Positions 2,085-56,965 of a stretch of 64,000 nucleotides of DNA are shown here, one piece after another. The translations under genes and the position numbers were made by a program. Within the stretch, counting starts at the first letter, position 1. Each line of letters starts with the position of its first letter. The notes under the pieces were generated by a model, which saw nothing but the letters and a program-made list of their open reading frames with translations, was not told where the DNA came from and made no database searches. The DNA is from Antedon mediterranea (lineage: Eukaryota > Animalia > Echinodermata), in assembly GCF_964355755.1 (NCBI RefSeq), contig NC_092672.1:4588001-4652000 (forward strand), in the 5' to 3' direction.

Positions 2085-2304
2085 CTTTAGAAGATGCATC
2101 ACTTGATTTGCTGTACTGTTTCTCCTGCGTCTGCACAGCTATCTCTTCCATTGTTTTATTCGTAACCTTACGTAGGGTTTGCAACTCTTGTGTAAGCTTA
2201 CCGACGTTAATACTCTGCTCTTCATATCGTTTCTCCAGTTGCCTTACTTTATCCTCTAATTTGCTGACGGAATCGTGATGTTCCCTCTTGCTTTGTTGTT
2301 GCTC
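2085..2304 (-). CDS. RIMBP2: RIM-BP coiled-coil exon (EQQQSKREHHDSVSKLEDKVRQLEKRYEEQ...SSK)
   Basis: tag acceptor at 2305, 73 codons + 1 nt, donor GTTTGT; resembles AQ..REHEGAVQLLE..VRELEE.CR.Q.EQF..L..EL of TSPOAP1/RIMBP2; the 3' boundary is less certain. Confidence 0.85.
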
Positions 2305-2547
2305 CTAGATATGAAGCACAGAGCCAATCAAATACTATGTTATATACAGGCTTCTTATTTTAAGTGCTTTTGTGATAATTTTCCTAATTATGATGATATA
2401 CATTATCATTATGATGTATACATTCTCTGTAATTGTGCTGGACAAAAGTAGAACAGCCAGCATTAATTTTTTCAACCAATCCTATTTCACAAAGCCTGTT
2501 CCAGTTTGATGGCTGCAGAAAATATTATGAAAATTGGTAATGGTATA

Positions 2548-2790
2548 CAGTAGAACCTCCTCCTGCGGGACATCCCTGGCTATCCACGGGACACCCTTGG
2601 CTATCCACGGGACATCCCTGGCTATCCACGGGACACCCCTGGCTATCCACGGGACATCCCTGGCTATCCACGGGACATCCCTGGCTATCCACGGGACACC
2701 CCTGGCTATCCACGGGACATCCCTGGCTATCCACGGGACACCTCTGGCTATCCACGGGACACCCCTTTTGAGGGGACACTTCCAGTAAAA
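2548..2790 (+). repeat. 21-bp minisatellite (GGGACAYCCCTGGCTATCCAC x9) inside a CAGT-terminated MITE remnant
   Basis: Array 2567-2755 preceded by TA CAGTAGAACCTC and followed by gaggggacac. Confidence 0.9.
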
Positions 2791-2874
2791 CTAATAAGGT
2801 GAAATACATGTTTTAATAATAATAATAAAGTGTCATTTCAATGCATTAGTGGTTTCTGAGCCAGTTTGACTAAC

Positions 2875-2979
2875 CTTTTGTAGATTTCTAATTTCGTCTT
2901 GCTTGAATTGTAAGCTTGCTATGGCCTCTTCATGCTCCTTCTCCAGTTGTTTCCGTTTTTCAGCAGCGGCCTGCATTAA
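2875..2979 (-). CDS. RIMBP2: RIM-BP exon (LMQAAAEKRKQLEKEHEEAIASLQFKQDEIRNLQK)
   Basis: tttttag acceptor, GTTAGT donor, 105 nt phase 0-0; matches recalled human RIMBP2 start MREAAERRQQLQLEHDQALAVLSAKQQEIDLLQK; alternative cag acceptor 9 nt downstream. Confidence 0.9.
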
Positions 2980-3377
2980 CTAAAAATTTTAAAAAACAAG
3001 TTGGTTTAGGCACAGGATTGTTAGCAGTAATTTAATTACAGTAGAATAACTCTCCTTTGGAATATCATAATCAAGGGACATTCTTTACCAGATAACACCT
3101 CTATGAAGGGGTGACGCCCCTATTACATCCTGTGATGAACTGAGGGGTAATTATGTTTCAACACTACTGCAAACCCTTATTCATGGGACACCTCTATTAC
3201 TGGAACTTTGTTATTTCTATATATTTGTTAAATTAAAAAGTATTAATTCTGATAAATAAATATAAAATGTTAAATGGCATTTTCTTTGTTTTGTTTTAAC
3301 AATGTGTATTTTTATATTGTAGTTGTAATTCAATATTTTAAATATTTTTTTCGCACCATTTTTATACCATGTCTTTA

Positions 3378-3595
3378 TAATACAATATTTTCCGAATTTT
3401 TATGCCTTTTGTAAAGTTTTTTATATAAAATAAATAAAAAAAAATGTTGCCAGAACCTTCTGAAAATGAGATGCTATATTTTGTATTTGTAATACAATAT
3501 TTTCCAGACTTTTTATGCCTTTTGTAAAGTTTTTAACATACAATAAATAAAACAAAATGTTGCCAGAACCTTCTGAAAAAGAGATGCTATATTTT
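3378..3595. repeat. Tandem duplication, ~112-bp unit x2
   Basis: taatacaatattttcc...gttgccagaaccttctgaaaa..gagatgctatatttt occurs twice. Confidence 0.85.
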
Positions 3596-3997
3596 CTCCG
3601 TATCTAATTCTATGTTAATTCTTCATCAGTGTAAATGTATCACTTTAAGTACCATCAATCGTACATTATGTATAGCATTTTATTGATTTGCCATAAAACT
3701 GAGTGTGCTAAATTGAAAATTTGTCAATGCAAACTTTACATCATTAAATATAGGGTGATCTCAAAGGTGTTTTTACATTGTGCAAAATGAACATCTGACA
3801 ATGAATACGTAATTAATCAAATATATAGGGTGAATAAAAGGTTATATTGACATTGTGTTAATTAAAACTTGTCAATTAAAACTTTATAAACATCAATTAT
3901 ATCTGAAAGCTAATATTGAATTATGCATTACTATCAATTAGAGTTTTTATTGCACCGTAGTACCCTTGATTTTTCATGATTAATTCAATAAATTATA

Positions 3998-5909: not shown

Positions 5910-6032
5910 CTTCACTTGATCTTCAAGTTTTTCAACCGTTTGTTTCAACTCATTCCTCTCAAATATAGATGTTTCGTACAGATCCTGCTGTTGTTTTAAA
6001 ACACCATTCAGCTTCCTACATTCCTCTTCGAA
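5910..6032 (-). CDS. RIMBP2: RIM-BP exon (FEEECRKLNGVLKQQQDLYETSIFERNELKQTVEKLEDQVK)
   Basis: tttatttacag acceptor, AAG/GTAAGA donor, 123 nt phase 0-0, heptad pattern. Confidence 0.9.
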
Positions 6033-9235: not shown

Positions 9236-9257
9236 TCCTTCCAATGTACTTGGAATT

Positions 9258-11181: not shown

Positions 11182-11271
11182 CGTTTCCAAATGGGTCAAT
11201 CGTTCTTGTAGCCGCGTGTTCTGATGAGTCAATTCAGTATTTTGAATAAGAGCATTCTGTAGTTCTGAGGT
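11182..11271 (-). CDS. RIMBP2: RIM-BP exon (TSELQNALIQNTELTHQNTRLQERLTHLET)
   Basis: tttttttgtctctccag acceptor, GTAAGT donor, 90 nt phase 0-0; resembles ELQLRQAQNENARLVEENSRL. Confidence 0.9.
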
Positions 11272-12583: not shown

Positions 12584-12595
12584 CAGTATTTAATA

Positions 12596-13996: not shown

Positions 13997-14086
13997 TCAA
14001 ATAAAAAGCATCCTATAATATTTTAAACAGCATCTTTTGACTAGCATCGCAATGATGAATACTTACAACAGGAAAAAGATACTCAC

Positions 14087-14540
14087 AGCCTCTTCTCGTT
14101 AAAATAAAATCTTTGGTTGGATAAATTCAATTTCTCATGTCATAAACAGACATAAAATGTATGTCAACTCTACAATGGAAGACTAATTCCTTCAATTGGA
14201 AACGCCGCAGGGAATACAAAACAACTAAATGCAATAATTGTATAGACGGTCACATTTATGCATGCTGTATTTCACGTTCGTAAAAATCCGTACGAGAGAA
14301 CTTAAGTATCAGAAAAAGCTAGGCCTGAGAAATGTATAGTTAACACAGATGGTTAAGACAAGCTAAAGCCTGTTGACAATACAGATGCTAAAACACATTT
14401 AAGGTAGCTAAGATTCCTGCTAACAGTATCAACAACGCTGAGTTGAATGCCTTGCTTCACTGCTTTGCACAATGTATCATTTACAATCTCGTTAACACAC
14501 ACGTTGATCTCACAGAAATGCACGCAGCCGGTTGCACTGA
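14087..14540 (-). promoter_or_regulatory. Candidate internal promoter and non-coding first exon of RIM-BP
   Basis: Two perfect donors 20 nt apart (GTGAGT 14086, GTAAGT 14066), non-repetitive CpG-richer sequence, Inr-like TCAGT at 14540-14536; in-frame stop just before the donor. Confidence 0.35.
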
Positions 14541-15268: not shown

Positions 15269-15592
15269 TGTAATGGGGATGTTTATCATAAACTATTTAT
15301 ATTTAAATTTACAGCACAACTCAGCTATGATCATTCAATAATTAATATAGGGATAAGAATCTTATTAATTGATAAGTTTTCTTCATGAGCCACTAAGGAT
15401 GAAGTTACTTAATAATTTACAACATGATCATTTTTGCAAATTTAATGAATAATTGAACTGCATGATGAGTAGCAGGAGGCTATTAGATAATAGAGTGAAA
15501 ATTGAGGGGAATAGGGAGGTAGAGGGGGACTGGCCCACAGGAGAATGGCATCAACATTAACTATGCCAGTCAATACAGAGGGTTATTGGTAA

Positions 15593-15833
15593 AGCATCTA
15601 AACATATCAAACTAGTTTGAAAAAAAAAATGTGATGTGCTCAATTAATATGGTAGTGATATGCTCAAATATGGTAGCGATATGCTCAAAAATGGTAGTGA
15701 TATGCTCAAATATGGTAGTGATATGCTCAAATATGGTAGCGATATGCTTCAATATGGTAGTAATATGACATAGTCATGTCCATATGAACACATCACATTT
15801 TTTGTTACAAAGTTTGATAGTGTAGACAGAGTT
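15593..15833. mobile_element. Harbinger MITE family A with about five internal 20-bp units
   Basis: aaatatggtagtgatatgct repeats; end agtttgatagtgtagacagag. Confidence 0.8.
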
Positions 15834-16800
15834 TAAAATCTCCATCAAGTAATAGCATCTCTACCACCTTCCAAGAAAAAAATTTCATAGCCATATGGAG
15901 CTATATGCCAATATGTAATTTAAAGTGTTGCATGAAACGTATAATTGTTTTAATTAATTTCTTGAGATAATAAAAGACAAAACAGCATAAAAGTCATGTC
16001 AATGTTTAGATAAGTAGTAATTATGCAGGAATAAATTATAAAAAATACAAAATAAACATAAATTCTCTTTAACTTTATATTTGATAATAAGTCACATATA
16101 ATTAATGTCAAAGCCGTTATTGCGCGATAATGACAGTTTATATAGATCCCAGGGTAGCCAATATAATTCAATGTATCTGGAGTAGAACATTATTGATTAA
16201 TTAATGTTGAGTATGATTAAGCTTCAATTAGTTGGTTTAATCATTTGGGATGTCACATTATAACTAAAGATTTGTTAGATAGTTCTTTTTTTCCCTCATA
16301 ATTATTTTAGGTCAAGATATGAGCACTGTAATTTCCACTATATTAGGTAATAAAAGGAATCTGTATCTGTATAACTGATGTCTCTAATATGTCAACAGGA
16401 GAATCCCTATTGAGGGGATATCTTTGGGACCCAACAAATTGTCCCAATAATACGGGTTTCTACTGAATAGGAGTTAGCTGTAGTGTTAAAACATATAATT
16501 TTGTACATTCATTTCATATCATATGATGATACCCCTGAACAGAGGTATTTAAAAGAAGGAGTTCTATTGTATGGTAAAAAACAGTAGTAAATATAATGAT
16601 ATGATATAATTTCAGCAAACCATTATATCAATGATGATGATGACAAAATGAAATGCCGATGATTATTATTATTATAAATATAATACTGAATTATCATGAT
16701 CATAATAAAATATAATGATAATGTAGTACGTTGAAGTCTCAAAATCCCATCCTTGATATAAAAAAAAAAATATATGTTTAAAAAATAATAATTTACTTAC

Positions 16801-16884
16801 GAGTACTTGTGAACGCTGGTGTTCTACATCAAACTGCTTTTGTAAAGTTTCACATTCTATTTTTTGTTGGGTAACCTCATCTTC
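16801..16884 (-). CDS. RIMBP2: RIM-BP exon (EDEVTQQKIECETLQKQFDVEHQRSQVL)
   Basis: ttttttttatag acceptor, GTAAGT donor, 84 nt phase 0-0; not in the ORF track, translated by hand. Confidence 0.88.
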
Positions 16885-23002: not shown

Positions 23003-23113
23003 CAATAGCTGTGTTTGTACGTTTGATTGCTCAAGCCCGTTAAGCTCCTTACGTAACGCTTTGTTGGTCTCCTCAAGTGCTTGATAGCCAATGGTGTTAC
23101 TGCTAGGATCGTG
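23003..23113 (-). CDS. RIMBP2: RIM-BP exon (HDPSSNTIGYQALEETNKALRKELNGLEQSNVQTQLL)
   Basis: tgttttgtttcttttag acceptor, GTAAGT donor, 111 nt phase 0-0; translated by hand. Confidence 0.88.
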
Positions 23114-23257
23114 CTAAAAGAAACAAAACAATAAAAACCATTTATGACAGTGCAACAATAATCTACGGAGAATTCTACTGTAAGTGTTCCACGTTTTTAT
23201 ACCAAAATACTGCCTCCACATGACGTCAAACATAATTATAACCAACTTTGAAAATAA

Positions 23258-23423
23258 AGCTCTGTCTACACTATCAAACTTTATCGTGACAAAAAAATGT
23301 GATATGCCCATACAGTATATGAAAACGACATCATATTACAGTACTACTATATTTGGGCATATCACTAGAATATTCGGGAACAACACCATTGTTTTGTTAA
23401 ACTAGTTTGATATTGTAGAACTT
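23258..23423. mobile_element. Harbinger MITE family A
   Basis: taa agctctgtctacactatcaaact...aaactagtttgatattgtaga. Confidence 0.75.
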
Positions 23424-23501
23424 TAAAATTGATAAGTGAGAATTCTATCTAACATTTTGAGTAACATGTTTTGGAGCAAAAATACATGAAATATAAATAA
23501 C

Positions 23502-25358: not shown

Positions 25359-25534
25359 AAGCAGAATTTAAGGGTGGGATTAAATTAAAAATGGACTTTA
25401 TATCAAAGTCCTATGTATCAAACTTAGGGTTTGGGATTATATTGGGTTATATGGCAATGCAGAAAGCAATTTCAAATGTTTTGCTCTCTAAATGGAATTA
25501 ATTTAAATATACAGTTATGCTATATTCATCTTTA

Positions 25535-25715
25535 AGGGTCTTTCACACCTGTTCCGGCACGGTTCCGGTCCGGCGCCGGAAAATCCAATCGAACGCCAAT
25601 GTTTCGTTTTCACGCGGCTACGCACATATCGATTGGCGCATAGCCGCGTGAAAACGAAACATTGATGTTCGATTCGCCGGACCGGAACCGTGCCGGAACA
25701 GGTGTGAAAGACCCT
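25535..25715. mobile_element. Palindromic Harbinger-type MITE (181 bp)
   Basis: TTA AGGGTCTTTCACACCTGTTCCGGCACGGTTCCGGTCCGGCG...CGCCGGACCGGAACCGTGCCGGAACAGGTGTGAAAGACCCT TTA. Confidence 0.88.
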
Positions 25716-29118: not shown

Positions 29119-29166
29119 CTTCTTACGATTTCTCCACCAGCTCAAAATGCCATTCAGTTTTTCCAT
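29119..29166 (-). CDS. Candidate short alternative first coding exon of RIM-BP (MEKLNGILSWWRNRKK)
   Basis: ATG with A at -3 and G at +4; AAG/GTAAAG phase-0 donor compatible with the 23113 acceptor. Confidence 0.4.
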
Positions 29167-31902: not shown

Positions 31903-32004
31903 TGCGGAATTGATAGCTAGACACCTTTGCAAGCGGAGTTGTTCCTTGGCATGTTGGCATATTATTCGTTCCAACTCTGCCTTTTCCGAGTACATCTTGC
32001 TGTT
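31903..32004 (-). CDS. RIMBP2: RIM-BP exon (NSKMYSEKAELERIICQHAKEQLRLQRCLAINSA)
   Basis: tattctctacttccaacag acceptor, GTAAGT donor, 102 nt phase 0-0; resembles DLDRLLRESQREVLRLQRQIAL of TSPOAP1; different frame from the ORF track entry. Confidence 0.88.
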
Positions 32005-32700: not shown

Positions 32701-32759
32701 AATGTTGTAATCATAAATATTAATATTAATTATAATAAATTAATATTACTGTTACTTAC

Positions 32760-32948
32760 TCGAACATTTGGGTCTGGTTCCCTGGTAAAGTTCTGCAGTT
32801 TGTCCACCACCTGACGGAGATCAGATATTTCTTTATCCTTAGCGAGAAGTTTCTGGGCATGATCTGCTATGTCTTTGGCACGCTGCCTCGCAAAAACACG
32901 CTTGTAATGATCAAGGTCATATGAGCTAGCTTTTGAGTTGTCATTTCG
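32760..32948 (-). CDS. RIMBP2: RIM-BP exon (RNDNSKASSYDLDHYKRVFARQRAKDIADHAQKLLAKDKEISDLRQ...NVR)
   Basis: ttgttcttgcag acceptor, GTAAGT donor, 189 nt phase 0-0; matches the recalled family motif ARQRARDLSETASALLAKDKQIAALQ. Confidence 0.93.
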
Positions 32949-34435: not shown

Positions 34436-35086
34436 TGAACAACCTTCATCAGATTGTTGCAAAACATCATTTCTAAGAGCATTCAACATCCATGGGGCAT
34501 CGGACGCTTGTTGTAACTCCTTTAAGTTCCACTCAACATGTCTGTTCATACACTGAGTACAACATTCGCATATGCTTCCTGCCCAATAGTGGTCAAAGGT
34601 CAAACTCTCCACAGAACCGTTCCCATCTACGTCAATATATTCATCATTTCCTTCCGAACTTGAATTAATACTATTTGTTTCATTCTCAGCATTACAGTTT
34701 TGCTTAAATAACCACCTATTATCGGATCTTTCTTTTGTAGATGGTAAATAAAGCAATGAACCGCGAAAATTATTACTCTTGTTATCACAAAATTGTTCTG
34801 TACAACACCCATTTGGAAGCTCCTGTTCTGAGAATTCATACGTCGAACTGGCTCCCAAAATTTCCGTAGAGTTAATTATTTCAAACGAGTTACTTAGAAC
34901 AAAGTTTTTTCCACTTAATATATCGTTTGTAGTCTCTTCAGTGGTAGTGTCATTTTTTTCATCACTTTTGCCAAAGCTTTCAAAGAAACGATCTTTAATA
35001 TCTTTGAATCCTTTGATCTCTTTAAACGTCGTTACATCAAAAAGATCACCCTCATCTTTACCCGGACTTTGTTGTGTGTTACCCAT
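34436..35086 (-). CDS. Probable alternative first coding exon of RIM-BP, 217 aa (MGNTQQS...DEGCS)
   Basis: Long ORF in AT-rich DNA, ATG with A at -3 and G at +4, TCA/GTAAGT phase-0 donor two codons before the stop. Confidence 0.75.
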
Positions 35087-38580: not shown

Positions 38581-38818
38581 ATTATCTTCAGGTTATGGTA
38601 CATCCTCTGTCCTCCCCAATGACCCAATTATACTACCATCTCTTGGTTCAAATGACAGACCTTAAGTACAGGTGAATACTGTATTCTTTTTAGTTTATTT
38701 TCTATAATAATCACACATAAAGTCTAATTAATGAATTATTTCCAGTTGACTTTTCACAATTGCTTGAGTTTGTATGAAGACAGCTACTAATTTGGAAGTG
38801 AACTTAAGATTGCTCTTA

Positions 38819-39039
38819 AGGTATTTCTACACTATCAAACTTTATGTGACCAAAAAAATGTGATGTGATGTGCCCATATATGGACATGATAATGTCATAT
38901 CACTACCATATTTGGAAATATCACTACCATATTTGGGAATATCACTACCATATTTGGGAATATCACTACCATATTTGGGAATATCACTACCATATTCGGG
39001 CACTTTTTTTTTTGTCAAACTAGTTTGGTAGTCAGAGCT
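38819..39039. mobile_element. Harbinger MITE family A between ~90-bp direct repeats
   Basis: tctacactatcaaact, five atatcactaccatatttgg units; aattaatgaattatttccag...tttggaagtgaa at 38726 and 39041. Confidence 0.8.
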
Positions 39040-40548
39040 TAATTAATGAATTATTTCCAGGTGCCTTTTCACAATTGCTTGAGTTTATGTGAAGACTGCT
39101 TCAAATTTGGAAGTGAAATTATACTCTAGAGTGATCTTACAGACTACTGCTGTACACCCACATAATTGCACCACTAGTGATGGTACCTATACAACATTAC
39201 AATCCAGGTTCTTATAATCATCTTAATTAATAAATTATGTCCAGTTGACTTTTCGCAATTCCCTGGTTTCTCAGCAAATGTCAGTTTCTATATTTAAGTG
39301 CTATTCAAACTTCTACTTGAACTATCACTAATGTAATAATTAGGTTAGTCATGTCCTAATGGCCAGTTAATGAGTGAATGTGTATTTCAAACAGTAATTA
39401 GAAATCAAAATTGATCTATACTGAAATTCTGCCTTTTCGAGAGTCATTTGAGCATGTTGCTGCTCTATGATTTGACAAACCTCATATTTGTGAAAGCATG
39501 ATTTAGCCAAAAGCAAAATGTATCTGTATGTATTGTTTTTCAGCGTTCCTTCCAAGGAATACAGGCCTAAAAAAGTTATATTGCCCAAGTATAGCACCAA
39601 TAAAAACATATATTTTTTAGTCCGTTTGTTTTTCTATGCACTCTAAGCTGTTAAATCATATTACTTATATTTATGAAAGCAAAGTGATAATTTAACATTT
39701 TAATTTCATCTTTAAACAATCAGAGTATGCCCATGATAGAATAATAAAATAATGGGTTTTTTTTAGTGTTTTTTTTTAAATTTGACAATGACATGAAACA
39801 AGAAAAGGGGATCGAATCAATACTCAAATTATAAAAAAAACTATTTATTATTGGGCTTTTAAACAGATTAACTTTTCTTGGTTAACCTAAACATTTTTTT
39901 TCTTTCTAATTATAAAATGTCAAAATATGAAATATTATATTCAACAAATTATGAAAATTGACAAATTGAGTTTAGCTGGAAACTCACACATCAATAAAAG
40001 CATTAGTAATAGTTTTTCAATAATTTACTGAATTATACAACTCAATTTTTTCATTACAATTATAATAATTGATGATATTTGAAACAATCAACCTAATATT
40101 AGTAGAATTGTATGCTTATTAATACTTAATTGCATTTATGGATATAAAATAGAAATTGTTATCAGCTGTGAAAGGAAACAGTATTGATGTTGATAAAGAG
40201 TTAACAATCGCAGGCAACGGTGAATATGCATTTGACATATCAATAAACGATTAACGTTTCTTAAAAATGTGTAGTACTTTAGGCTTCTAAAGACCAACTC
40301 GAACAAAGTGATATGATGCAACCTGTCGCTCTGAGTTGTCAGGGTTTGTTGCGTCCTATTAAACATTAGACGTGCACCATGTCAACATACACCATGCCAT
40401 TCACTCAAAAGGTAAAATGGCTACCACTCAGGTTCTGGCTGCCTTTAACACTGTATAGGCCTAATTCTCTAAACTTTTAGTTATGGGAAACTGAAATTGT
40501 CCAAATAAATGGTTACATAGGGAGGCTGAGTGTCGGGGGATCATTATA

Positions 40549-40797
40549 CAGTATAACCCTGTTTTCGGACATCTTTATTAATGAGAACAAAGGGAAACCC
40601 ATTCAAGGGACACCTCTATTCAAGGGACACCTCAATTTAAGGGACAACTCTATTAAAGGGACAACTCTATTAAAGGGACACCTCTATTAAAGGGACACCT
40701 CCTCTATTCAAGGGACACCTCCTCTATTCAAGGGACACCTCTATTCAAGGGACACCTCTATTAAAGGGACATCGCTATGGTGTCTCCTTAATTACTG
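40549..40797 (+). repeat. 17/20-bp minisatellite (AGGGACACCTCTATTMA x~10) in a CAGT...ACTG MITE
   Basis: TA CAGTATAACCC...array...GTGTCTCCTTAATTACTG TA. Confidence 0.88.
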
Positions 40798-41473
40798 TAT
40801 TCTGTTTTTTTTTAATAAACTGAGAAATCAATCATTTACTTTAAATAAAATTTGAGTCGTGTGTGAATTGAACAAGATACCAAAAATTGACCCAAAGCCT
40901 CATGGTTCATTGCACGCATTGGCTACTAGTATAGTTTAACCACAAAGAAAATACAATACTCTCCAGCAAACATAAGATATCTGTTTTAAAGTATTGCAAA
41001 TGACTTGCGTATATCCAATCAATAAATAACTTCCAACAAACTACAAATAACTCAAACAGAATTTATATTTCTATTTACGATACGATAACACCGACCTGCA
41101 TATAGAAGTATTTAAATAGTTCTGCAAAAGAGCGGAAATAATTAGCTAGAATCATAGGCTGACAATGAACATATTAACTCGAATAAACAACCGTCGGTAT
41201 TTAGTTTAGCTAATTAACCAATCATATTAATTGATTTTCAGACTAGGAATTATTGATTGCAGATTGCTAGCTCTAGGGATAGGAAGATTGTCAATAGACT
41301 CGGGATGATCATAATTATATATGTAATTGGCACACATGTTTATTTGCTGTATATAAATCTTATTTAACATTACCGCATATCTTCGGTCAACCGATAAGTC
41401 ACATCAAATCCCATTAAAAACATTTTCTGAGGCTAAAAGGGATTTTTTGGTTAAATAAAATTTATCGTATCTA

Positions 41474-41635
41474 AAGTTCTGTCTACACTATCAAACTTTA
41501 TGTGACAAAAAAATGTGATGTGCCCATATATGGACATGATGTTGTCATATTACTACCATATTTTGGTATATCACTACCATATTTGGGCACATCACACTTT
41601 TTTTGTCGAACTAGTTTGATAGTTTTAGACACAGG
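41474..41635. mobile_element. Harbinger MITE family A
   Basis: agttctgtctacactatcaaact...aactagtttgatagt. Confidence 0.8.
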
Positions 41636-42971
41636 TGCATTTTTATAATCTATTTATTTCTGAACTATAAATATAATTTCTTTATTATTGTACGTCAGAG
41701 CTATTAGTCTGTATATCATACTTGCGACCAAATCACTTACTCTACGTATTCCAAGTGTGGAAATTACTGTTAAACACCTTTAACATCAATAATACGTCCC
41801 CAATTGACTATTATCATTTCCCATACACTACCGCAGATAATCAATTTACCAACTTAAGTGTTGATAAAACTGGATACAAGTTCTACTCCAATTAAGCCTC
41901 CAATTAGAGACCTTCGGGACCAGAGGTGTAAAAATGCAACTGAAGTGTAAATACAACCATCTATATATTATTATGAAAGAGAGAGTTTGTACAGAAATGT
42001 GTTTGTTTCTTGAATTCAGTAATCCATGCACATGGGCAATGCAATTTTATTGTTTAGTTGCTTCCTTTTTCCTATCTTTTCTTCTGTGATGATGATATAA
42101 TTTAATTCATTTAATTCTTTTATTCTAGATTGTTTGTGCTTTATTTTTTATTTATAAATTATATTTATTTTAATTTAATTTTTATTGTATTTTTGTAAGG
42201 GTCCCTAATGATCAGCTTCAGCTGGATGGACCAAACTCTTAAAATATCGTTAAAATAAACAAGAAAATTAATAAAAAGTGTCATTTTTGTTCTTTGTTTG
42301 CCTAAGTTGTTAATTATGCGGCCGTTATGCGTCCTCCATCTTAATAATTGTATTTTTGTTTTTTTGTGATTATGATGGAAATAAAGATTGATTGAAAAAT
42401 GACAGCAATTGTACAGGTTTTACATTTGAACCACCAAGATGAGTGTAAAAAGGTAAACAGAGAGAGGTTGGGGTAATGGGTATCAAAATGATCAGAATTG
42501 TACTGCTATTCTGTATTGTAAGCTACATTTTGTGGTTTTACCTGCTCTGTTTATCTTTGCTAGATTCTCAATAACAATTTCCATATTTCATTGTAAAGGT
42601 GTACAACATTTTTTTCAGGTTTAGCCTATTAAGTTGTTATACGTCCTCCATCTTAATAATAATAATTGTATTTGTGGTTTTTTTTTTGTCTAAACAAGGA
42701 GCAGTATCTCTCATAAATAACTGATCTTGAATTAATTAACTTTTTTTTGCATATAATACTTCATTAGTATTTAATCTAATGTTCTGTGCAACATATATTA
42801 ATTTTTTTAATATTTAATTTTAAAAAGTGCATTAATAATTTATATGTGCAAATGTAACAAGTTTTAATAAATATATTACAAGGTCTAAACATGAATACAT
42901 TACTTTCAACATAATGTGTACAGTGTTAAAACAAAGATTATGATGACAACAGGAAACTCATATAAAACATA

Positions 42972-43115
42972 AAGACACTATCAAACTTTATGTGACAAAA
43001 AAAGTGATGTGCCCATATGGAAATCATATCACTACCATATTTAAGCATATCACTACCATATTTGGGCACATCACATTTTTTTTTGTCAAACTAGTTTGAC
43101 AGTGTAGACAGAGCT
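42972..43115. mobile_element. Harbinger MITE family A
   Basis: acactatcaaactttatgtgac...agtttgacagtgtagacagagct. Confidence 0.8.
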
Positions 43116-43530
43116 CAAGAATGAAGGCCTTGGTAAAATTAAATATAAATAATATTACCTTTCCGTACAAATGTTTAAAAACAAATTTGTAAGAGAATGG
43201 TTTGTAAAAAAAATCCATATCGGAATTTAGATCATAATAATAATTCCAAAAACAGAGAAACTCAACAGTTCTTTTCAGAACTAATACACGTGGTGTACCG
43301 CAAACGTTATATCAAAATTCCCAAATAAATACAATGTTCATATGACCATTTACTGTACTTTGTATACATGTATTAAATTACTTGTTTATTTGTCTTCTTT
43401 TATACTACGTTTTACAAAAGATAATACAAAATGAGTTTTTCCAATTACGGATAAAAAGTGCATTTTAAGTATTTTCATTGAAGTGCGTTATTATATCATA
43501 TTGTATAATATTTATTGTGTGCTGTTGCAT

Positions 43531-44245
43531 AACATTTGAAAAATTGTAATATTAAACTGATTAAATTGAGTTCTTTTACAATATTATTAGTAACCGTTTT
43601 TTTCATAAGGATTCAGATAAAATGTTCATTTGCTTGGGTAATGCTTTTTCAACAGAATAGACTGTAGCCCTTTTTGTAAATGTTTAGTATTAGAAATAAA
43701 CATTTGAACAATTGTATATTAAACTGATTAAATTGAGTTCTTTTACAATATTATTAGTAACCATTTTTTCATAAGGATTCACTGATAAAATGTTCATTTG
43801 CTTGGGTAGTGCTTTTTCAACAGAATAGACTTTAGCCCTTTTTGTAAATGTTTCAGTATTAGAAATGAACATTTGAACAATTCTATATTAAACTTATTAA
43901 ATTTTGCTTTTTTCATAAGGATTCACTGATAAAATTGTAATATGGTTGGGTAGTATAGTGCTTTTTCAACTGAATAGATTTAAGAGCTTTTTGTAAATAT
44001 TTCAGTATTAGAAATGAACATTTGAAAAATTTGAATATTAAACTTAATAAATTTAGTTCTTATTAGTAAGCGCTTTTTTTATAAGGATTCAGATAAGATG
44101 TTAATATGCTCGGTGCTTTTTCAACTGAATAGACTTAAGCGCTTTTTGTAAATATTTCAGTATTAGAAAAGAACATTTGAACAATTTTAATATTAAACGC
44201 TCTTTTTAAATTGTTCAGTATGTATTCAAATAGAAATGAACATTA
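43531..44245. repeat. Satellite-like tandem repeat, ~150-169-bp unit x4 plus a partial unit
   Basis: aacatttgaa.aatt recurs at about 43531, 43699, 43868, 44017 and 44172 with a shared ataaggattc / tgctttttcaac.gaatagac body. Confidence 0.88.
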
Positions 44246-45174
44246 TTTAGAATTTCTTTAACTTTAACACAATCATGATGATCTTCTGATAGTAAAGTTT
44301 TCATTTAATTTAAGTATTCTTTTGGAACATTATTTAACAATTTAAAAAAAAATTGCAATTTCATTTTACATTCATGTAATACAAATGTTGTTTTACTTAA
44401 TAGTTTTTGACAGACTATAATTGGAATAACATTGGAATGCTATTGGAATCTTAAGTGGAACACTAAGTGAAGTAATGTGTGTTTGTATTTTTTCAAATGA
44501 TGTTTTGAATGCTTTGACGAATATGAATTAGCATATAATTAGCATATATTTTTAGTTGGCAAAGCCAAAAGCATTTTGTCCAACTTTAGATTGACACATG
44601 CGTAGTTAATAGTCAGAAGGCCGATACTTCTCCAAAGGATATCTCCATACATACAACACGATCAAAATTGTTGAGTCTATCTATAATAGATTTAATGTAC
44701 GCAATGATCTTATTCAAGTTAAGCGGCAACACAACATGGATGAAGAAGAACCCATATTATGGTTCCCTTGATATCTCCTCTGTAAAGAGGTTGGCCATCA
44801 GAGCATATATTTCCCCATATGTTGTTTCATAGGAAAGTTTCGCCTGAAACTTAGGACCAATATTGCGTCTAGGTGCCAAAATAGGTTCTACTGTATTTCT
44901 GTCGTATAATACAGACAAGTGTTTTTTAAACATGAAGAATTAAATATTGGATTGATCCTAAGCCTCAACATGTCATGTTTGTTATTGCACGACAGACTAT
45001 ACCCTAGAGAGGGCTTAATAGAATACAAAACCACATGATAAGTAGATGGGTCAATAATGAAAAATACAGTATAGGATTTTGATGATTAAAGATACATTTG
45101 AAAATTATAAAGAAACTAAAGGTTTGGAAACAAGTAAAATACAGAACTTAACATATGGCTGCAGTTGTAAGTAA

Positions 45175-45346
45175 AGTTTGGTTCCCACTAGAACATAACG
45201 CAAGGACGTAAACGCAATGCAAGCGTTTTAACCAATGACAAGCAAAGTTATAGACAGTTAGCAATCACAAGCGAATAAGCCATCGCTTGTGATTGGTCAA
45301 TTCACTTGCGTTGCGTTACGTCCTTGCGTCGCTAGTGAGAAACGCT
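45175..45346. mobile_element. Harbinger-like hairpin MITE, decayed
   Basis: ggttcccactag..acgcaaggacgtaaacgcaatgcaag is inverted relative to cttgcgttgcgttacgtccttgcgt..ctagtgagaa. Confidence 0.65.
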
Positions 45347-45660
45347 TTAGAAAGTAAAGATAAAATAGTTATAATTATCTGATAACAAATATGAAGACAT
45401 ATTGACATTGACAAGATACATTGAGAAGCTTTATAATGTCCTTTAAAGATGGTGTCAATAAATAATAATGCATAGTGCGTCCTTCTGATAAAAATATCTA
45501 ATGTACAGTATGTACATAAAAATGTTAAAGGTATTCAATATTCAGCTTTCTATTTTTGAAGGTTAAGAAAATCAATAAATGTACCTTTATGTACTTGAAT
45601 TTCTTTCTTTAAAAAAAAGGGAATTAAAGTGCAGTACAGTATTATTATTATCGACCTTAC

Positions 45661-48120
45661 CTCAGTATCATTAAGTTGAGCAGCATCCTGAGTAAGTTGC
45701 TCATCTTTAACTGGCTGTTCATATTCTTCCAAATTATTAAACAATTCGATAAGAGAAAATATGGATGCTGGGTGTTGCGGATCAAAGGCACCGGTTTCAT
45801 TGGCACCAGTTCCATTGTCACCGGTTTCATTAGTAACAGTTTCTGAATTTGGTTCAAAATGACTGGAACTCAAACTATCTGTTTTGCGATTAAAGTACGG
45901 AGCAGAGGAGAAATTGTCGACGAAAGAGTAATCCAACTGCTCAGAGATGTCAGGGCTAATGGAAGCCATATCTGGTTCAACCGGATACGGTGCGAGACGA
46001 GATGGTTCTGCCATCTTTTTTGGAGATGAAATATCTGGTTGAGAATCCTTGGAATCTTTTCTACTTGATTGAAAAGTTTGATGCTTTGAATTTTGATCAG
46101 AAACTAATGGTTCTGCCAATGAATCTAGTTTATCAAAAAATTCTGAAGATCTATTTCGGCTTTTATAACTTGGTGAGTTCATTTCAGCAAATGTGCGTGC
46201 TTCTTGGCCGTCTCTAGGCTTGCCAACATCAATCTTTTTACAATAAAGACGGGCTGCACAGCGAAAAGCATTCAAGGGAACCTTTCCATACAACGGACCA
46301 AAGAATAGTATCCCTCTGTGATACGACACAGCAACCGAATTCAACATTGATGGTTTTGCTGTAGATCGCTTGCCAAAAATATTTGTAAGCAATGTGCTGT
46401 CCTCTAATTCCTTCTCTGCCGTTTCTTGAAAACTTTTAAAATATCCCATAAATGAGCTATCGTCTTTTGTCTTTGTCTGATCATCGGTTCCTCCAAAGAT
46501 TCCAAAAAATGAAAACGAGTCATCATCTTGTTTCTTTTGGTGTGTATTCTCCTTTTTCTCTTGTGGTCGTTTGGGTTGCTTTGCTTTAGCTCCTCTGGCA
46601 AACTTCTTCAAGTTTTCTCTAGAACCCAAGACCGTTTTTGGTTCTGGTAAATCTTTCCCAAGATAACTGAACTGCGTTGATTTTTTAGGTTTTCCGGTAA
46701 AGGACCAATGTGCTGATTGAGTAGGTAAATGTCTTGTATCGATATCACTGGATCGTCTTCTAACTGAAGAGCGAGTCCCTTGAGACGATAGTTCATAGAA
46801 AGAAGTGTTCATTGGTCGTGGCTGTTTTATCTCCTCAGCGGGTCTTGATGGCAAGTTTTTTCTACCTCCAGTCAAACCATTCTGCTTCTCAACTTCAACA
46901 ACACTGCGAGGTGCCGGAATTGGATAAGTAAACGCCTCTTGTGTTTTGGTCTCATGAATTGTGGGAAACATATCCGAATGCATTTTTTGAAAATTACGAG
47001 ATCTAGAGGTTACATGTTTATGATCTGAATTTAAAGGTTGAGAATGACCATTAAATGCCTTTTTTTGCTGTGGATACAGTCTATCATATTTATTAGGCAT
47101 TGCTTCATTTTGGCCCGACAGATACGTACCATCATATTGATGTGAACTTGTACCATACATGTTATCCGTTTGTCTAGGCATGTATCTTCTAGAATCCTCA
47201 TGTAGAAATCCATTCTGGTTTGGAGTATAATTATTACCATTATAATGACGATCTAGTCCATTTTGGCCTGCTACATTCTTTGCACCAGAAACATTCAATT
47301 CATTATATGAATTATGTATACTCTCATTTCTCGGATTTTCGTTGATTCTATATCCATTAAGTGATGTTAAACTTTCTTCTTTTAACTGAGATGTTCTATC
47401 TTTCTGAACGCTTTCATATGATGGCGGTTTGGTCGATGGTAGCGTAGCATTAGTCCTGTGCGTATTTTTCTCTTCCCTCGTTTCTGCCGATTGATACGGA
47501 GCATGTTGTGGTAGATTAAGATGCTGGCCATAATTCACCTTTGAACTTGCAGGTTGTTTGGAATTACCATCATCACTTTTGAAGAAAAATCCAAGTGGAG
47601 AAGATTCAAGAGTCTTCATAAACATTGATTTATCCTCTGACTGTGGTTTAATATAACTACCGTTCAGATCCTCCCTGGTTAATTTAGCGCTTATAGGTGG
47701 CATACCAGGGTCTGAAGGGTGCGTAAAGATACTCTGTCCACTCATTGTAGGGCTAGGTGATGTCGAGCTATCAAATCCATTTTCATAAGGAACAACTTCC
47801 TCTGGATGTGTACTTGTTAGTCTGTCTAGAAATCTACCAGGCTCTTCAGGGTCGTACTCATCAGGAGTACTATACCTATCAGATCCTCCTTGAACACTAC
47901 CTGTACTGTCTTGCTTCGAAACTGTTACTCTTTCATTATTTCCACTCTTAGTAGCTGGATAAGTGGCACCATATGTGTTTTGAGTGCTTGAACTATTATT
48001 ATTATTATTGCTGAGTGAGTCTGAAGAGCCAAAATATCCAAACAATGAAAAATCTGATGTCTTGCTGTTATCGTTTTTCACAAGTTGCTCTGAGTTAAAT
48101 AGGCTTAACGATGGTAGCAT
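45661..48120 (-). CDS. Probable giant alternative first coding exon of RIM-BP, 820 aa, mostly disordered (MLPSLSLF...LNDTE)
   Basis: 2.46-kb uninterrupted ORF rich in S/N/Q/P/T, no transposon domains seen; first ATG at 48120; GAG/GTAAGG phase-0 donor at 45660, after which composition becomes intronic. Confidence 0.8.
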
Positions 48121-50246
48121 GATCGTTAATACGACAACAAGATGAAAAATGGTCAACACATTTTATCATACAAAATCTTCTATCCGTCATTGAATATAAA
48201 CCATACCAAAGTTCAAGTGTAAATGATGATACAAGAAAACTTGCTTGCAATCTTCAGTAAATGTCGTTTTAAATGTGTTTTGGCTGCAAAATTGTATTCA
48301 GTAAACGATTGTAAGTAAGATTTTTCTTTTTACCAATTTGCTAAAAGATTTGATTTATGTGTCTTCTTGATGTTGTTAATGTTACTCAATAATACCTACA
48401 AGCATCAGTTTAAACATCATAAATATTGCAATAACTTGTTAAACTTGGATCAAATTCCATCGTTATTGGTCAATTTCAATTATTCCTATTGCCAACTACT
48501 TGTAAGAACTCACCGCTTTAACATCAGAAACATTTTCTTGAAAATAGTAATATTCCACATGTTCAATCACCATCCTCCAGTATTTAAAGTGTTTTAAAAT
48601 ATCAAGTTTAGATTTAATTTATTGAGTATAAAAAACCAGAGGCTATAAAAAATTGCATAAACTGTGATGTGTTGCTCATGTATTAGCAAAATGATGACAA
48701 GTATTACATATCACACTACAGGTAAGTGCTTATAATTGATAGTAAGTACCGTGGTGTGACGACGTTAAATTACCAACAGTTTTCTGAAACAACTTCGATT
48801 TGAACACAACGTATTTAAAGTACGTAAGACAATACCTCATTCTGTTATAGCCAGGTCAATCAAACTATCACATTACACACAAAAATTATTAAAAAAACTG
48901 ATGAATTTATGCTAAAAAGTATTGCCGTCGGTTTTTGTCCGTTTCTCTGCTTATGAAAATATATGTTATTATATTGTAATTGAATATGCAGACATTTCCC
49001 ATTACTTTGCATTAGCTGTTATCTCATAATAATAATCCCAGATAATCTCTCATAATCCAATAATCACAACTGTTCTAAATACAGAAGATACACACAATGT
49101 TAAACAATTCTGAAATTAATTTATACAAAAAATGCAAAAACAAAATTTCATCTTCGGTAGAAAAGTTCACTTTTAGAATCCTGAATATAATCCACTTTCG
49201 CGAACAGTAATGTTGATCGAGGGCGTTAAAATTCCTTTAAAAGCCTGGATTTGATGACTTAGCACGATGCATGGCCCCAATCATTACCAGGTAATGTGTT
49301 TACTGAAATGATACACAGTGAGCTGAGTGAGTGGTATTTGCATGCCAATTGACTATTGATTATCCGCCTAATCCAGTTGAAAGCCTAATAGAGGGCAGCG
49401 AATGATACGCTGTGTAGCTAAGGCTGTCCACTCATGCCCATGATTAATTGACTACACCAATTAACATTGAATAACTTCTCGCACCCACTCATCAAAGCCG
49501 TCAAAAACCGATTTGCTTTATCCTCCCCGAATCCTAAACGAAATTGATGACTGTTCTATTTGTGTCTGCTCCACCTTTTTATGCTGTAATTTGCCAGGAT
49601 ATAAACGTGAAATTCAATCACTGTTCACCGAATTCAATCAGGAAAACATTAGCAAACGTATGTCTCACCTTCAGACCGTCTTATGTAATGAAGACGAAGT
49701 GTGGTATAGAAAACGTGTAAACAATAAATGAATGCACAAGGCCACACAAATTTATGAATAATTAATTTCAATAGCATTCAATGTTCACAAAAGAACATGA
49801 ACTAGTAACCAATTATACATCTCATGCAACGACAATGTTTATTTTTAGATCAGATTTTCAGTTACTTTTTTTTTCTGAAAAATAATCAATCCATATGGTG
49901 ACTAATGTAATTTGAATTATAACAAAATTGCATTAATATTTTCAAAATATTAATAGAATATTTGAATATCTAATTATTTATACAGTATTTAAACAAAATT
50001 ATTTACACATTTTTAAGAGATGTACTTTATTTTTCCTCACTTTTTTCGTTGAAAAAAAGACCTTTATATTATAATTTAAGGTAAAAAACTACTTCTAAGT
50101 ATGTATTGTAGACCTCACACTTAAAACATAAAGTTATTGGCATATGATATAATGTGAGCAAATGTTAAGCCTTAAAGGCCAACACTAAGTATTATAGAAT
50201 TTGTCATTTTCAAGGCAAAGGCAAACAACTCTAAACAACCATCTGA

Positions 50247-54304: not shown

Positions 54305-54479
54305 CAGGGAATAATTTCGCCAGTGTAGCATAGCAAAAAGCTATACAAAACAACAATATTGCTACACATTTCTAAAATTGTGTAGCAAAAAATACAATAC
54401 AAAACTATGTTTCTTGACTCAAAAATCAGTTTGATTAGCAATTTTGCTAAACAAAATTACAAAATGAAATTTTTCCCTG
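54305..54479. mobile_element. 175-bp MITE with CAG termini and 5-bp TSD (hAT5-like)
   Basis: ACTCT CAGGGAATAATTTC...GAAATTTTTCCCTG ACTCT; internal TAGCA repeats on both strands. Confidence 0.7.
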
Positions 54480-55764
54480 ACTCTACATTTCATAAACATT
54501 TTGTGAACCTCCATTGTTTTTATTTATCTCTTGTCCTAATTAAATAATGTACGCATTAATTTTATAGTATTACAAGGTTTCTTCTTTCCTTTTTTTGCTA
54601 TTAACTATTAACTCTTTGCGAGAGAGTTCCTCTGCTTTAATGGCGAAAACCAATAAATAAAATAATTAGAATGAGAGGTGGAAGTTTTAAGACGATAAAC
54701 ATGAAAAAAAAAACCATCTGACTGCCTAGTAAGCAACATTCACTAATAGATGATAATAAATGTAATTTTGTAGCCTATCTGCTGAAATTGATTTAATAAA
54801 AACCTTTAATTCGATACTAATCAATTCAATTTAAATAACAAAACTATAGAGGGCATAGTCTTTGAAAGAATGTAAAGTTGTTGTGCATAGAGGGCAGCAA
54901 ATAATATAAAGATTATAATGTGTTAAATTTATTGTATACTTTATCGTAGTTGACATTTTTGTATGGTGCAACTACTTTAGAAATGAAAAGTCAACAAATA
55001 AAATTATTCAAATGGGTACTATTTTCATCCAATGGCTATATCTGTTATCTGTTTTAAACAAAGGTCACTTCTAGGATTAAGTCATGTCCTTTTGGTCTCT
55101 CAGTAATCAGCATATTTGAAAACTAAATACTAGAATATTTAGAATATTATTGGGACATACCAAGACAAACTTGATAGCTAATAAATATGTTTTTGTAAAT
55201 CTAACAGATAATTGGCGTCATAAAAATTGCAAGCGTGTAAAGAATTGGGATTTATCAAGATTGGTCACGATCATACTTGACGACTCGTAAATTTGACATA
55301 ATTATGCTATAATATGCCGACAGTTTGCAAAGGAATGTAGTTAAAAGGCAAACCACTCATCTCAAGAAATCGGAGGCCATTTAAAAACTGATTTGGATTC
55401 AGAGCTTTTAGTATTGTAAATGCAAAATTGCTTCTTTTAAATATGAAACAAATGTATGTGCATTCGGAATGAAAAACTACGCTTAGTTTAATTTCTAGTA
55501 TTTGATTTTGTAGTTAAAGTTATTTCTTTTTTCTTTTTTTAGCTGGATTGTAGTTACAACATAATATAATTACTTTTTAAATTATAAAAATGTACTTCAT
55601 ATTAAACTGAAATGATGACTGAATATTACTCAATCTTTTTCTTTATTGAACCTATAAACTTAGAGTCATGTTGTATAAAAATAAAAGATATGATGGTAGA
55701 AGTTATAGGAAAATGTTAAAAACATAATTAAACTACAGATGACAAATCACAAGCAAGTACAAGT

Positions 55765-56077
55765 GTAAAAAAAAATGTGATACAGTATGCCCATATATGG
55801 ACATGATGATCTCATTATCACTACCATATTTGGGCATATAACTACCATATTTGGGCATATATCACAAACATACAGTATTTGGGCATATCACTACCATATT
55901 TGGGCATATCACTACCATATTTGGGCATATCACAAACATATTTGGGCCTTTGAATATTATTATTATTATTGAACATTATTTTTATGGATACCGGCACTAG
56001 TATATAAGTCTGATTGATTGATTGATTGATTAATCATACTTTTTTTGTCAAACTAGTTTGATAGTGTAGACAGAGCT
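55765..56077. mobile_element. Harbinger MITE family A with a nested (ATTG)n-tailed fragment
   Basis: About six to seven 20-bp units, a foreign segment at ~55948-56032 ending tgattgattgattg, then aaactagtttgatagtgtagacagagct tta. Confidence 0.75.
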
Positions 56078-56099
56078 TTAGAAAGATCGTGTACATCAA

Positions 56100-56415
56100 T
56101 GCGTCGAGTGACCGAGCAGTAAAGGCAAATCATATACAATACAATCCAAGCATTTTCAAGTTTTTACTCAGACATTGGTCTTGCAGGTAGAACAAGGCTT
56201 CTTGGAAAATTAAGGACCCATTTGGCTTGTGTGCACTTTAAAGAACCTAGTGCATCTTTCGAAAGAGTAGGGGTTACCCCGGTGTACTGGTCTGCCAGCG
56301 TCCTTTTGTTCATCTGGTAGGCGCTTGCACTGTTTGCAGCCGTGGTTCTGTAGAGGGCCTAATCCGAATTATCTCAGTCTACTGATGTTGCGTTGAGGAC
56401 ACTATTTACATTTAC
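56100..56415 (+). mobile_element. tRNA-derived Deu/Nin-domain SINE
   Basis: Head gtgaccgagcagtaaaggc; cactttaaagaacctagtgcatctttcgaaagagtaggggttaccccggtgtactgg resembles the recalled Deu/Nin consensus; tttaca tail. Confidence 0.72.
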
Positions 56416-56818
56416 ATAATGTTTGTGAGCAAACATATTTTAATGTTTACTTGTTGCAATTGGGAAAATTCTTTTGATCCTTTCATATTGCAATGAATCA
56501 AGCATTCCACTGATTGGCTAATGCTGTGGATTCCTTGATTGTGACGCTCATCTGAGTTTGAAGTGAGCCCTCTATTATTTAAAAACTTCCATTGATGAAC
56601 AATTAAACCTGATTATTTTAATTTGGTTTTATTTAATGTATTGCTCTTAATCTGAACACAAAATACAAATACATTATATAAACAAAATAAATACAATCTG
56701 TATTAAGTAAGAGGATAACTCTATAAGCTCAAAAGTTTGTTTCCATAGGGGTCTGTCTGTCTGTCCTCTAATTAGAAGAATAAAACAACAAAGCATGGAA
56801 TAATAAATAAAGACTTAC

Positions 56819-56965
56819 TGTTTTTCCATTACTTCTTTGCAATTCCCTAGCTTTCTCCTCAAGTCGTTTAGCAATGGAAGCCAGTTCTGTATTGCGTTTC
56901 TTTAACTTGACTACTTTCTCTTCTAATGGTTTGTGTAAAGTCTCCATTTTTTCATTCTTGATTGT
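56819..56965 (-). CDS. RIMBP2: RIM-BP exon (TIKNEKMETLHKPLEEKVVKLKKRNTELASIAKRLEEKARELQRSNGKT)
   Basis: tgtttttctttccag acceptor, GTAAGT donor, 147 nt phase 0-0; matches recalled TSPOAP1 EEKVRRLKRKNAELAVIAKRLEERARKLQE. Confidence 0.93.

What the first reader, a model, noticed from the sequence alone, without database searches (positions are those of the whole stretch)
2085..56965. RIM-BP N-terminal switchboard: all phase-0 coiled-coil exons with several independent entry points
Seen: nine exons all entered in phase 0, and intronic ATG-bearing exons at 48120, 35086 and 29166 each end in a phase-0 donor; a non-coding donor pair at 14086/14066 adds a further possible entry. Known: RIM-BPs scaffold Ca2+ channels, RIM and Munc13 through C-terminal SH3/FN3 domains, and vertebrates have long (TSPOAP1) and short (RIMBP2) N-termini in separate paralogs. 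Inferred: one invertebrate gene uses alternative promoters to attach up to five different targeting modules (full coiled coil, giant disordered, lipidated, amphipathic, none) to a common core. This is the strongest candidate for undescribed biology in the window.
Basis: partly seen in the sequence, partly recalled or inferred. Interest (0 to 1): 0.78.

Follow-up and report, generated by a model that had tools for sequence, protein, structure and literature searches.

The report
Feather-star RIM-BP swaps its front end
A feather-star gene for the nerve-terminal scaffold protein RIM-BP has evidence for three front ends rather than five: a full-length form shown by a spliced RNA junction, plus two large intron-embedded exons conserved in a related species that likely act as alternative starts, replace half of a conserved domain, and would place the protein differently, as is known for other synaptic scaffolds.

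Summary
The window holds the coiled-coil part of a crinoid RIM-BP gene on the minus strand. All nine exons are real and entered in phase 0. Three of the five proposed N-termini hold up. (1) Full length: an RNA contig joins 56819 directly to 32948, skipping 24 kb. (2) The 820-codon exon 48120-45661 and (3) the MGNT exon 35086-34436 are conserved in Anneissia japonica (48% and 32% identity). There, RefSeq isoforms X1-X5 and X6 start with them and join the 32948-exon ortholog. An RNA contig stops at 45661 with 30 unplaced letters. Both exons enter the middle of Pfam RIMB1_N and remove its first half. The 29166 exon and the 14086/14066 donors occur at chance frequency. Promoters, lipidation and targeting are untested, and the SH3/FN3 core lies outside the window. 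The design is known from Aplysia and fly unc13 and worm cla-1. Eight paper searches found no report of it for RIM-BP, but two of the three forms are already automated RefSeq models. The scan's notes showed no earlier RIM-BP finding.

The parts
56819..56965 (-). Internal coding exon of the full-length isoform; encodes RIMB1_N profile positions 35-73; its upstream exons lie outside the window
   Evidence: Pfam PF25566 E 1.5e-12; 92% to A. japonica LOC117114279 C-terminus, with no other significant hit of that protein in the window; X1 loose ends at both exon edges, the downstream one being the first 12 letters of the 32948 exon
45661..48120 (-). Giant alternative first coding exon, 820 codons, likely mostly disordered, four conserved [FLMI]G[FYI]F motifs, phase-0 donor
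   Evidence: 48% identity over 881 columns to the N-terminus of A. japonica X1; X1 contig 47718-45661 ends at the donor with 30 letters left over; in-frame TAA upstream and no good phase-0 acceptor; only A. japonica hit among 1.84 billion representatives
34436..35086 (-). MGNT alternative first coding exon, 217 codons, candidate N-myristoyl site and conserved CxCCxxC cluster, phase-0 donor followed by a stop after two codons of read-through
   Evidence: 32% identity, E 5e-22 to A. japonica X6 residues 1-237; motifs; no good phase-0 acceptor; junction not seen in this species
32760..32948 (-). First shared exon and convergence acceptor; encodes RIMB1_N positions 77-127
   Evidence: Pfam E 1.3e-13; 83-85% to A. 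japonica; X1 depth 35.4 at 32880 versus 0 at intronic 33065 and 33112
31903..32004 (-). Shared coiled-coil exon, phase 0-0
   Evidence: 80% to A. japonica; boundaries
23003..23113 (-). Shared coiled-coil exon, phase 0-0
   Evidence: 84% to A. japonica; boundaries
16801..16884 (-). Shared coiled-coil exon, phase 0-0
   Evidence: 56% to A. japonica; boundaries
11182..11271 (-). Shared coiled-coil exon, phase 0-0
   Evidence: 73% to A. japonica; boundaries
5910..6032 (-). Shared coiled-coil exon, phase 0-0
   Evidence: 62% to A. japonica; boundaries
2875..2979 (-). Shared coiled-coil exon, phase 0-0
   Evidence: 92% to A. japonica; boundaries
2085..2304 (-). Last coiled-coil exon, entered in phase 0, left in phase 1 (weak donor; about 15 following A. 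japonica residues have no match in the window)
   Evidence: 85% to A. japonica; boundaries
568..663 (-). Tenth exon (96 nt, phase 1-1), orthologous to a 32-residue cassette present in A. japonica X1, X3 and X6 and skipped in X2 and X4
   Evidence: 67% hit at 664-536 and isoform comparison; sequence
29119..29166 (-). Proposed 16-codon 'amphipathic' first exon; not supported, at chance level
   Evidence: 1 of 11 equivalent intronic frames, 10 on the control strand; hydrophobic moment 4th of 11
14066..14091 (-). Proposed non-coding donor pair; not supported, at chance level

Best explanation
This is the single RIM-BP gene of a feather star; it makes a full-length transcript that splices 56819 to 32948, and it likely also makes two shorter-start transcripts from promoters inside that same 24-kb intron, which begin coding with the giant exon or the MGNT exon and splice in phase 0 to 32948. 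Shown: the full-length junction in RNA; both alternative exons are conserved and are annotated first coding exons in Anneissia; the intron interrupts the RIMB1_N domain between profile positions 73 and 77. Inferred: each alternative exon removes the first half of RIMB1_N and everything upstream, and puts in its place either an 820-residue, likely disordered arm with short hydrophobic motifs or a 217-residue leader predicted to bind membranes (N-terminal glycine, cysteine cluster). The downstream coiled coil and at least the first SH3 stay unchanged. By analogy with fly RIM-BP, whose N-terminal region binds BRP/ELKS and supports vesicle recruitment, and with Unc13 isoforms whose N-termini set their position, the swap would change how and where the scaffold is anchored, probably by cell type. 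The 29166 and 14086 entries are most likely chance sequence.
For: Spliced loose end at 56819 equal to the first 12 letters of exon 32948 and unique in the window, present in X1 and absent from DNA run X2. A. japonica X1-X5 begin with the giant-exon ortholog and X6 with the MGNT ortholog, each followed directly by the 32948-exon peptide. X1 contig of 2091 nt stops at 45661 with 30 letters over, while X2 runs on through 45339. No phase-0 acceptor of true-acceptor quality among 14 AG sites checked in the first 660 nt of the giant frame or 9 in the MGNT frame. Amphioxus and Saccoglossus proteins join the two RIMB1_N halves directly. Pfam coordinates. Chance controls. Precedents: PMC9282427 section 13, PMC6198076 passages, PMC7337501 passages.
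Against: No transcription start, CAGE or long read was available. The 30 letters beyond 45661 were not printed, so that junction's partner is inferred. The 34436 junction was not seen in this species, and the one X1 contig inside that exon (34738-35043, depth 3.7) looks like the intronic pieces. The A. japonica isoforms are automated models, and the same annotation splits the gene at this intron (LOC117114279 versus LOC117115470). MGNTQQS fails the strict myristoylation pattern, recalled from PROSITE. The A. japonica models carry only one SH3 and no FN3, so a link from these exons to the channel-binding SH3-II/III is not shown. RNA evidence is one run from one study.
Confidence: 0.75

Rival explanations
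1. One reading: five entries, including the 16-codon 29166 exon and a non-coding exon ending at 14086/14066, which would start translation at the Met in exon 2979.
For: A good acceptor at 29300 and a GTAAGT at 29474 lie upstream of 29166 and could form a spliced 5' UTR. N-terminally shortened models exist in amphioxus (P0014) and Saccoglossus (P0023).
Against: Both sites are at chance frequency. None of the 6 A. japonica isoforms retrieved starts at either place, and a search of 558-1777-residue proteins with the shared coiled coil returned 4 clusters, none a shorter A. japonica form (limited by clustering and by the 7988 candidates scored). An out-of-frame ATG at 29174 overlaps the 29166 start.
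Confidence: 0.12
2. The giant and MGNT exons start a separate, C-terminally short transcription unit (coiled coil plus one SH3, no FN3 or SH3-II/III) that is not a canonical active-zone channel tether.
For: All 6 A. japonica LOC117115470 isoforms end after the first SH3; Pfam finds no FN3 in the 2 scanned.
Against: The same annotation also cuts the gene at the 56819-32948 intron, which RNA here shows is spliced through, so a second false split downstream is likely. Amphioxus and Saccoglossus orthologs carry the full SH3/FN3 set.
Confidence: 0.1
3. The two large frames are independent single-exon genes or repeats nested in the intron, and the RefSeq joins are annotation errors.
For: No homologs outside one crinoid; no Pfam family.
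Against: Both are single-copy in the window. Conservation runs to within about 10 residues of the donor and not into the read-through. The X1 contig leaves the genome exactly at 45661. The MGNT read-through stops after two codons.
Confidence: 0.05

Closest known systems
Anneissia japonica LOC117115470 isoforms X1-X6 and LOC117114279 (RefSeq models)
   Same: Orthologous exons; the giant-exon start (X1-X5) and the MGNT start (X6) are already annotated there, joined to the same shared exon.
   Different: RefSeq treats the upstream RIMB1_N half as a separate gene ending in a read-through; RNA in this species shows the direct junction. The models are automated and carry one SH3 only.
Aplysia unc13 with four N-termini from intronic alternative promoters (PMC9282427, section 13 read); Drosophila Unc13A/B (PMC6198076, passages)
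   Same: One invertebrate active-zone gene; intronic starts swap or drop N-terminal modules on a common core; fly N-termini set position relative to Ca2+ channels.
   Different: Different gene family; there the starts and functions were measured, here the starts and functions are inferred; here the swap falls inside a conserved domain.
C. elegans clarinet cla-1 L/M/S isoforms (PMC11912834 passage; PMC12823496 and PMC5728718 abstract starts only)
   Same: Active-zone scaffold with a shared C-terminus and isoform-specific long N-termini with distinct sub-synaptic localisation.
   Different: RIM/Piccolo-type protein, not RIM-BP; no split of a conserved domain reported in what I read.
Drosophila RIM-BP N-terminal region (PMC7337501, passages)
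   Same: Helical, coiled-coil N-terminal region conserved with mammalian RIM-BP1; binds BRP/ELKS and supports vesicle recruitment, while SH3-II/III bind Cac, Unc13A and RIM.
   Different: Engineered deletions, not natural alternative first exons; I did not align the fly region with the crinoid exons, so which half binds ELKS is untested.

Membership tests
RIM-BP (RIMBP/TSPOAP1) family | N-terminal RIMB1_N domain (PF25566) followed by a long coiled coil | tested here: met
   Two exons score 47.9 and 51.3 bits against a cut-off of 28.5, at profile 35-73 and 77-127; joined in RNA
RIM-BP (RIMBP/TSPOAP1) family | Orthology to full-length RIM-BPs of other deuterostomes | tested here: met
   Best hits are crinoid, amphioxus and Saccoglossus RIM-BP/TSPOAP1-like proteins; Saccoglossus P0024 matches 6 of the 9 exons at E below 1e-4, in order
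RIM-BP (RIMBP/TSPOAP1) family | Three SH3 domains with FN3 repeats between SH3-I and SH3-II (PMC9282427 supplement passage) | tested here: inconclusive
   This part lies beyond window position 1. The A. japonica models have one SH3 and no FN3, possibly a split annotation; amphioxus P0003 has the full set
RIM-BP (RIMBP/TSPOAP1) family | Binding of Ca2+ channels, RIM and Unc13 at active zones | not testable with these tools
   Needs protein experiments; the domains concerned are outside the window
Alternative-promoter N-terminal isoforms (unc13/cla-1 type) | Distinct first coding exons inside an intron that splice in frame to a shared exon | tested here: met
   Met for the giant and MGNT exons through ortholog models and the 45661 contig end; not met for 29166 or 14086
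Alternative-promoter N-terminal isoforms (unc13/cla-1 type) | Independent transcription starts inside the intron | not testable with these tools
   Only assembled contigs were available, which cannot show starts; CpG profile shows no clear island at the candidates
Alternative-promoter N-terminal isoforms (unc13/cla-1 type) | Isoforms differ in localisation or function | not testable with these tools
   No expression or cell data
N-myristoylated proteins | Met-Gly start with a small residue at position 6 (PROSITE-type pattern, recalled) | tested here: inconclusive
   MGNT is conserved in both species; A. japonica passes the pattern, the window sequence (Gln at 6) fails

The most novel reading that the evidence does not exclude
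Crinoids evolved a promoter switch that cuts RIM-BP's most conserved N-terminal domain in half. In place of the first half they fit either a crinoid-specific 820-residue disordered arm with repeated [FLMI]G[FYI]F motifs or a lipid-anchored leader (N-myristoyl glycine plus CxCCxxC). This gives release sites where RIM-BP attaches to the membrane directly instead of through ELKS. A read-through at 56818 may add a soluble N-terminal-only fragment, seen as a RefSeq model in Anneissia and as unspliced contigs here, that competes with the full-length form.
Probability: 0.25. Interest if true: 0.6.

Novelty: new variant of a known kind. Interest (0 to 1): 0.36.

Why it matters
The N-terminal region of RIM-BP is the least understood part of this conserved synaptic scaffold, and in flies it links to ELKS/BRP. 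Natural isoforms that keep only the second half of RIMB1_N give ready-made constructs to ask what each half does, and whether RIM-BP can be anchored by lipid or by a disordered arm. It also corrects an annotation: two Anneissia RefSeq loci are likely one gene. The principle itself, intronic starts swapping N-termini on active-zone scaffolds, is established for unc13 and cla-1, and the exons appear restricted to crinoids, which limits the general impact.

Tried and rejected
No whole genome is held for this window, and no crinoid genome was available, so conservation of 29166 and 14086 and dN/dS could not be tested. The run search listed 5 runs, none on record as RNA ('no RNA holder listed'); X1 was a guess and is treated as RNA only because of its spliced junctions. 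Laying 28950-48900 was swamped by repeats: 1132 joints, 2885 loose ends and 70004 pieces were not shown, so the missing 34436 and 29119 junctions are no evidence either way; 14086 was never laid. Contig depths were not used to rank isoforms. AlphaFold on the giant exon with a 2-sequence alignment gave mean pLDDT 35.5, with 0 of 820 residues at 70 or above; this is uninformative beyond fitting disorder, so no fold search was run. ESM Atlas: one weak hit (0.76) for the Anneissia MGNT region and only generic coiled coils for the Saccoglossus region; the planned check on vertebrate RIMBP2 long forms failed. CpG enrichment as a promoter mark: no candidate stands out, and the strongest peak (24-26 kb) looks like mobile-element sequence. 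Cassette use of the large exons was rejected for lack of phase-0 acceptors. Skipping of the phase-0 coiled-coil exons: X2-X5 differ from X1 only downstream of the coiled coil, and X6 hits all eight exons, so phase symmetry is not shown to be used. The donor matrix was trained on 12 donors that include 45661 and 34436, so their own scores are inflated. The [FLMI]G[FYI]F pattern was chosen after seeing the sequence, so its 0 of 5000 shuffles overstates significance.
Full report
Setting. The window is 31% GC and holds one large minus-strand gene. The best hits to exon 32948-32763 are Anneissia japonica LOC117115470 isoforms at 85% identity, then amphioxus RIM-BP-like proteins at about 60% (6 hits among 33 candidates). 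The organism is therefore likely a crinoid. Earlier scan notes on the same genome also call it a feather star; none of the 8 notes shown (of 28 that fit) concerns RIM-BP, and a word search found 0. No genome is held for the window.

Observation. The nine coiled-coil exons exist with canonical AG and GT ends and are all entered in phase 0. Eight match A. japonica X1 at 56-92% in order, and a tenth exon at 663-568 matches a cassette at 67%. Exon 56965-56819 matches the last 50 residues of a separate A. japonica model, LOC117114279, at 92%; residues 1-267 of that protein have no significant match in the window, so the gene begins upstream of position 64000. The SH3 and FN3 exons lie beyond position 1.

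Full-length form. Run X1 has a contig that leaves the genome at 56819 with 12 further letters. These are the first 12 letters of exon 32948 and occur once in the window. A second loose end at 56966 reads, translated by eye, as the residues that precede this exon in LOC117114279. DNA run X2 spans the stretch in one piece and lists neither loose end (12 of 13 rows shown). So X1 is RNA, and the 56819-32948 junction, which skips both large exons, is real in this species. Amphioxus and Saccoglossus proteins have the same two peptides adjacent. The two A. japonica loci are therefore likely one gene.

Giant exon. The 820-codon frame 48120-45661 is 48% identical over 881 columns to the N-terminus of A. 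japonica X1, from the first residues to within 10 of the donor. Five of the six isoforms retrieved (X1-X5) start this way and continue directly into the 32948-exon peptide. In X1, a 2091-nt contig aligns from 47718 to exactly 45661 and has 30 letters left, as expected where several exons converge on one acceptor; X2 continues through the donor. Those 30 letters were not printed. Among 1.84 billion representative proteins the only hit is the A. japonica protein. Pfam finds nothing. About 70% of residues are disorder-promoting, and the AlphaFold model is uninformative (mean pLDDT 35.5).

MGNT exon. The 217-codon frame 35086-34436 is 32% identical (E 5e-22) to A. japonica X6 residues 1-237, with conserved blocks at the start, in the middle and just before the donor, including CxCCxxC. 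X6 joins it to the shared exon, with five extra residues at the join. In the window, read-through of the donor stops after two codons. No junction contig was listed for this species, in tables that were heavily cut. The Met-Gly start is conserved, but only the A. japonica sequence fits the strict myristoylation pattern, which I recalled from PROSITE.

First exons, not cassettes. All 10 true acceptors have 11-14 pyrimidines in 16 positions, C or T at -3, and no extra AG. None of the 14 in-frame AG sites checked in the giant frame or the 9 in the MGNT frame meets this. Both frames have an in-frame stop shortly upstream. They cannot be internal cassettes that keep their conserved N-termini. Transcription starts remain unknown; there are many upstream ATGs within 300 nt, so the 5' UTRs are likely short or spliced.

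The two weak entries. With the donor threshold set at the 29119 score, the introns hold 11 ATG frames of 16 codons or more ending in phase 0, against 10 on the plus strand. At 50 codons there are 0 besides the two large exons (control 1), and at 100 codons 0 (control 0). The 14086/14066 pair is one pair among 15 sites, P=0.077, with a like pair on the plus strand. The 29166 peptide ranks 4th of 11 in hydrophobic moment. No A. japonica model starts at either place among those retrieved. These two are not excluded, but nothing supports them.

Mechanism. Pfam RIMB1_N (129 positions) is split by this intron: exon 56965 gives positions 35-73 and exon 32948 gives 77-127; LOC117114279 covers 8-73 and X1/X6 cover only 73-78 to 127. 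The alternative exons therefore replace the first half of the most conserved N-terminal domain. This follows from the junctions. The functional step is inference: the fly RIM-BP N-terminal region binds BRP/ELKS and is needed for vesicle recruitment, while SH3-II/III bind channel, Unc13A and RIM (PMC7337501, passages). A swap would therefore likely alter scaffold anchoring and leave the C-terminal binding intact, if the long C-terminus is included. That last point is open, because the A. japonica models end after one SH3.

Comparison with what is known. Aplysia unc13 makes four N-termini from intronic promoters (PMC9282427, section 13 read). Fly Unc13A/B differ in position through their N-termini (PMC6198076, passages). 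Worm cla-1 has long, medium and short forms (PMC11912834, passage). The Aplysia supplement says the bilaterian invertebrates it examined have one RIM-BP and mentions no isoforms in the passages seen (2 of 15 places shown). Eight searches turned up no paper on alternative RIM-BP first exons or on crinoid RIM-BP; some searches listed only 25 of 71, 12 of 35, 15 of 797 and 15 of 865 papers. Mittelstaedt and Schoch 2007, cited in PMC7337501, was not read and may describe RIM-BP variants.

Verdict. The feature is real but narrower than claimed: three N-termini (one shown, two well supported), not five. It is a new variant of a known kind, and partly already in RefSeq. Interest 0.36.

Noticed in passing
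window 29843-29960 (-): Full-length 5S rRNA match (Rfam RF00001, 85.6 bits, model 1-120) inside an intron, about 680 nt upstream of the proposed 29166 start; a dispersed 5S gene, pseudogene or 5S-derived repeat head. The bin that holds it is at very high depth in both runs.
   Followed up: partly
window 56300-56836 (-): X1 has unspliced contigs running from exon 56965-56819 into the intron for about 500 nt and none upstream of the acceptor. A. japonica LOC117114279 ends in the same read-through. This is either pre-mRNA or a conserved N-terminal-only isoform; the read-through here adds 16 mostly hydrophobic residues.
   Followed up: partly
window 45661-48120 (-), residues 27, 176, 539, 558: Four [FLMI]G[FYI]F motifs at orthologous positions in both crinoids, inside conserved blocks; AlphaFold puts a low-confidence helix-strand-helix element at residues 558-627. 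Function unknown.
   Followed up: partly
window 48514-48573 and about 48283 (-): A strong donor (GCG|GTGAGT, score 10.9) and a fair acceptor lie upstream of the giant ATG and could form a spliced 5' UTR; the X1 contig 48403-47710 runs across that acceptor unspliced.
   Followed up: no
window 15590-15838, 28577-28765, 38810-39032, 41470-41634, 42975-43118, 55769-55951: Copies of a very high-copy miniature element with terminal inverted repeats and an internal 21-bp tandem array.
   Followed up: no
window 23250-25900: CpG-rich intronic stretch (observed/expected up to 2.1) with a 266-bp tandem duplication and a palindromic element at 25534-25716 (42-bp perfect arms); it looks like mobile DNA rather than a promoter.
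   Followed up: partly
A. japonica P0001, P0002, P0007-P0010: All six models end after the first SH3 and vary by cassette skipping between the coiled coil and SH3-I; whether the FN3/SH3-II/III part is a separate model was not checked.
   Followed up: no
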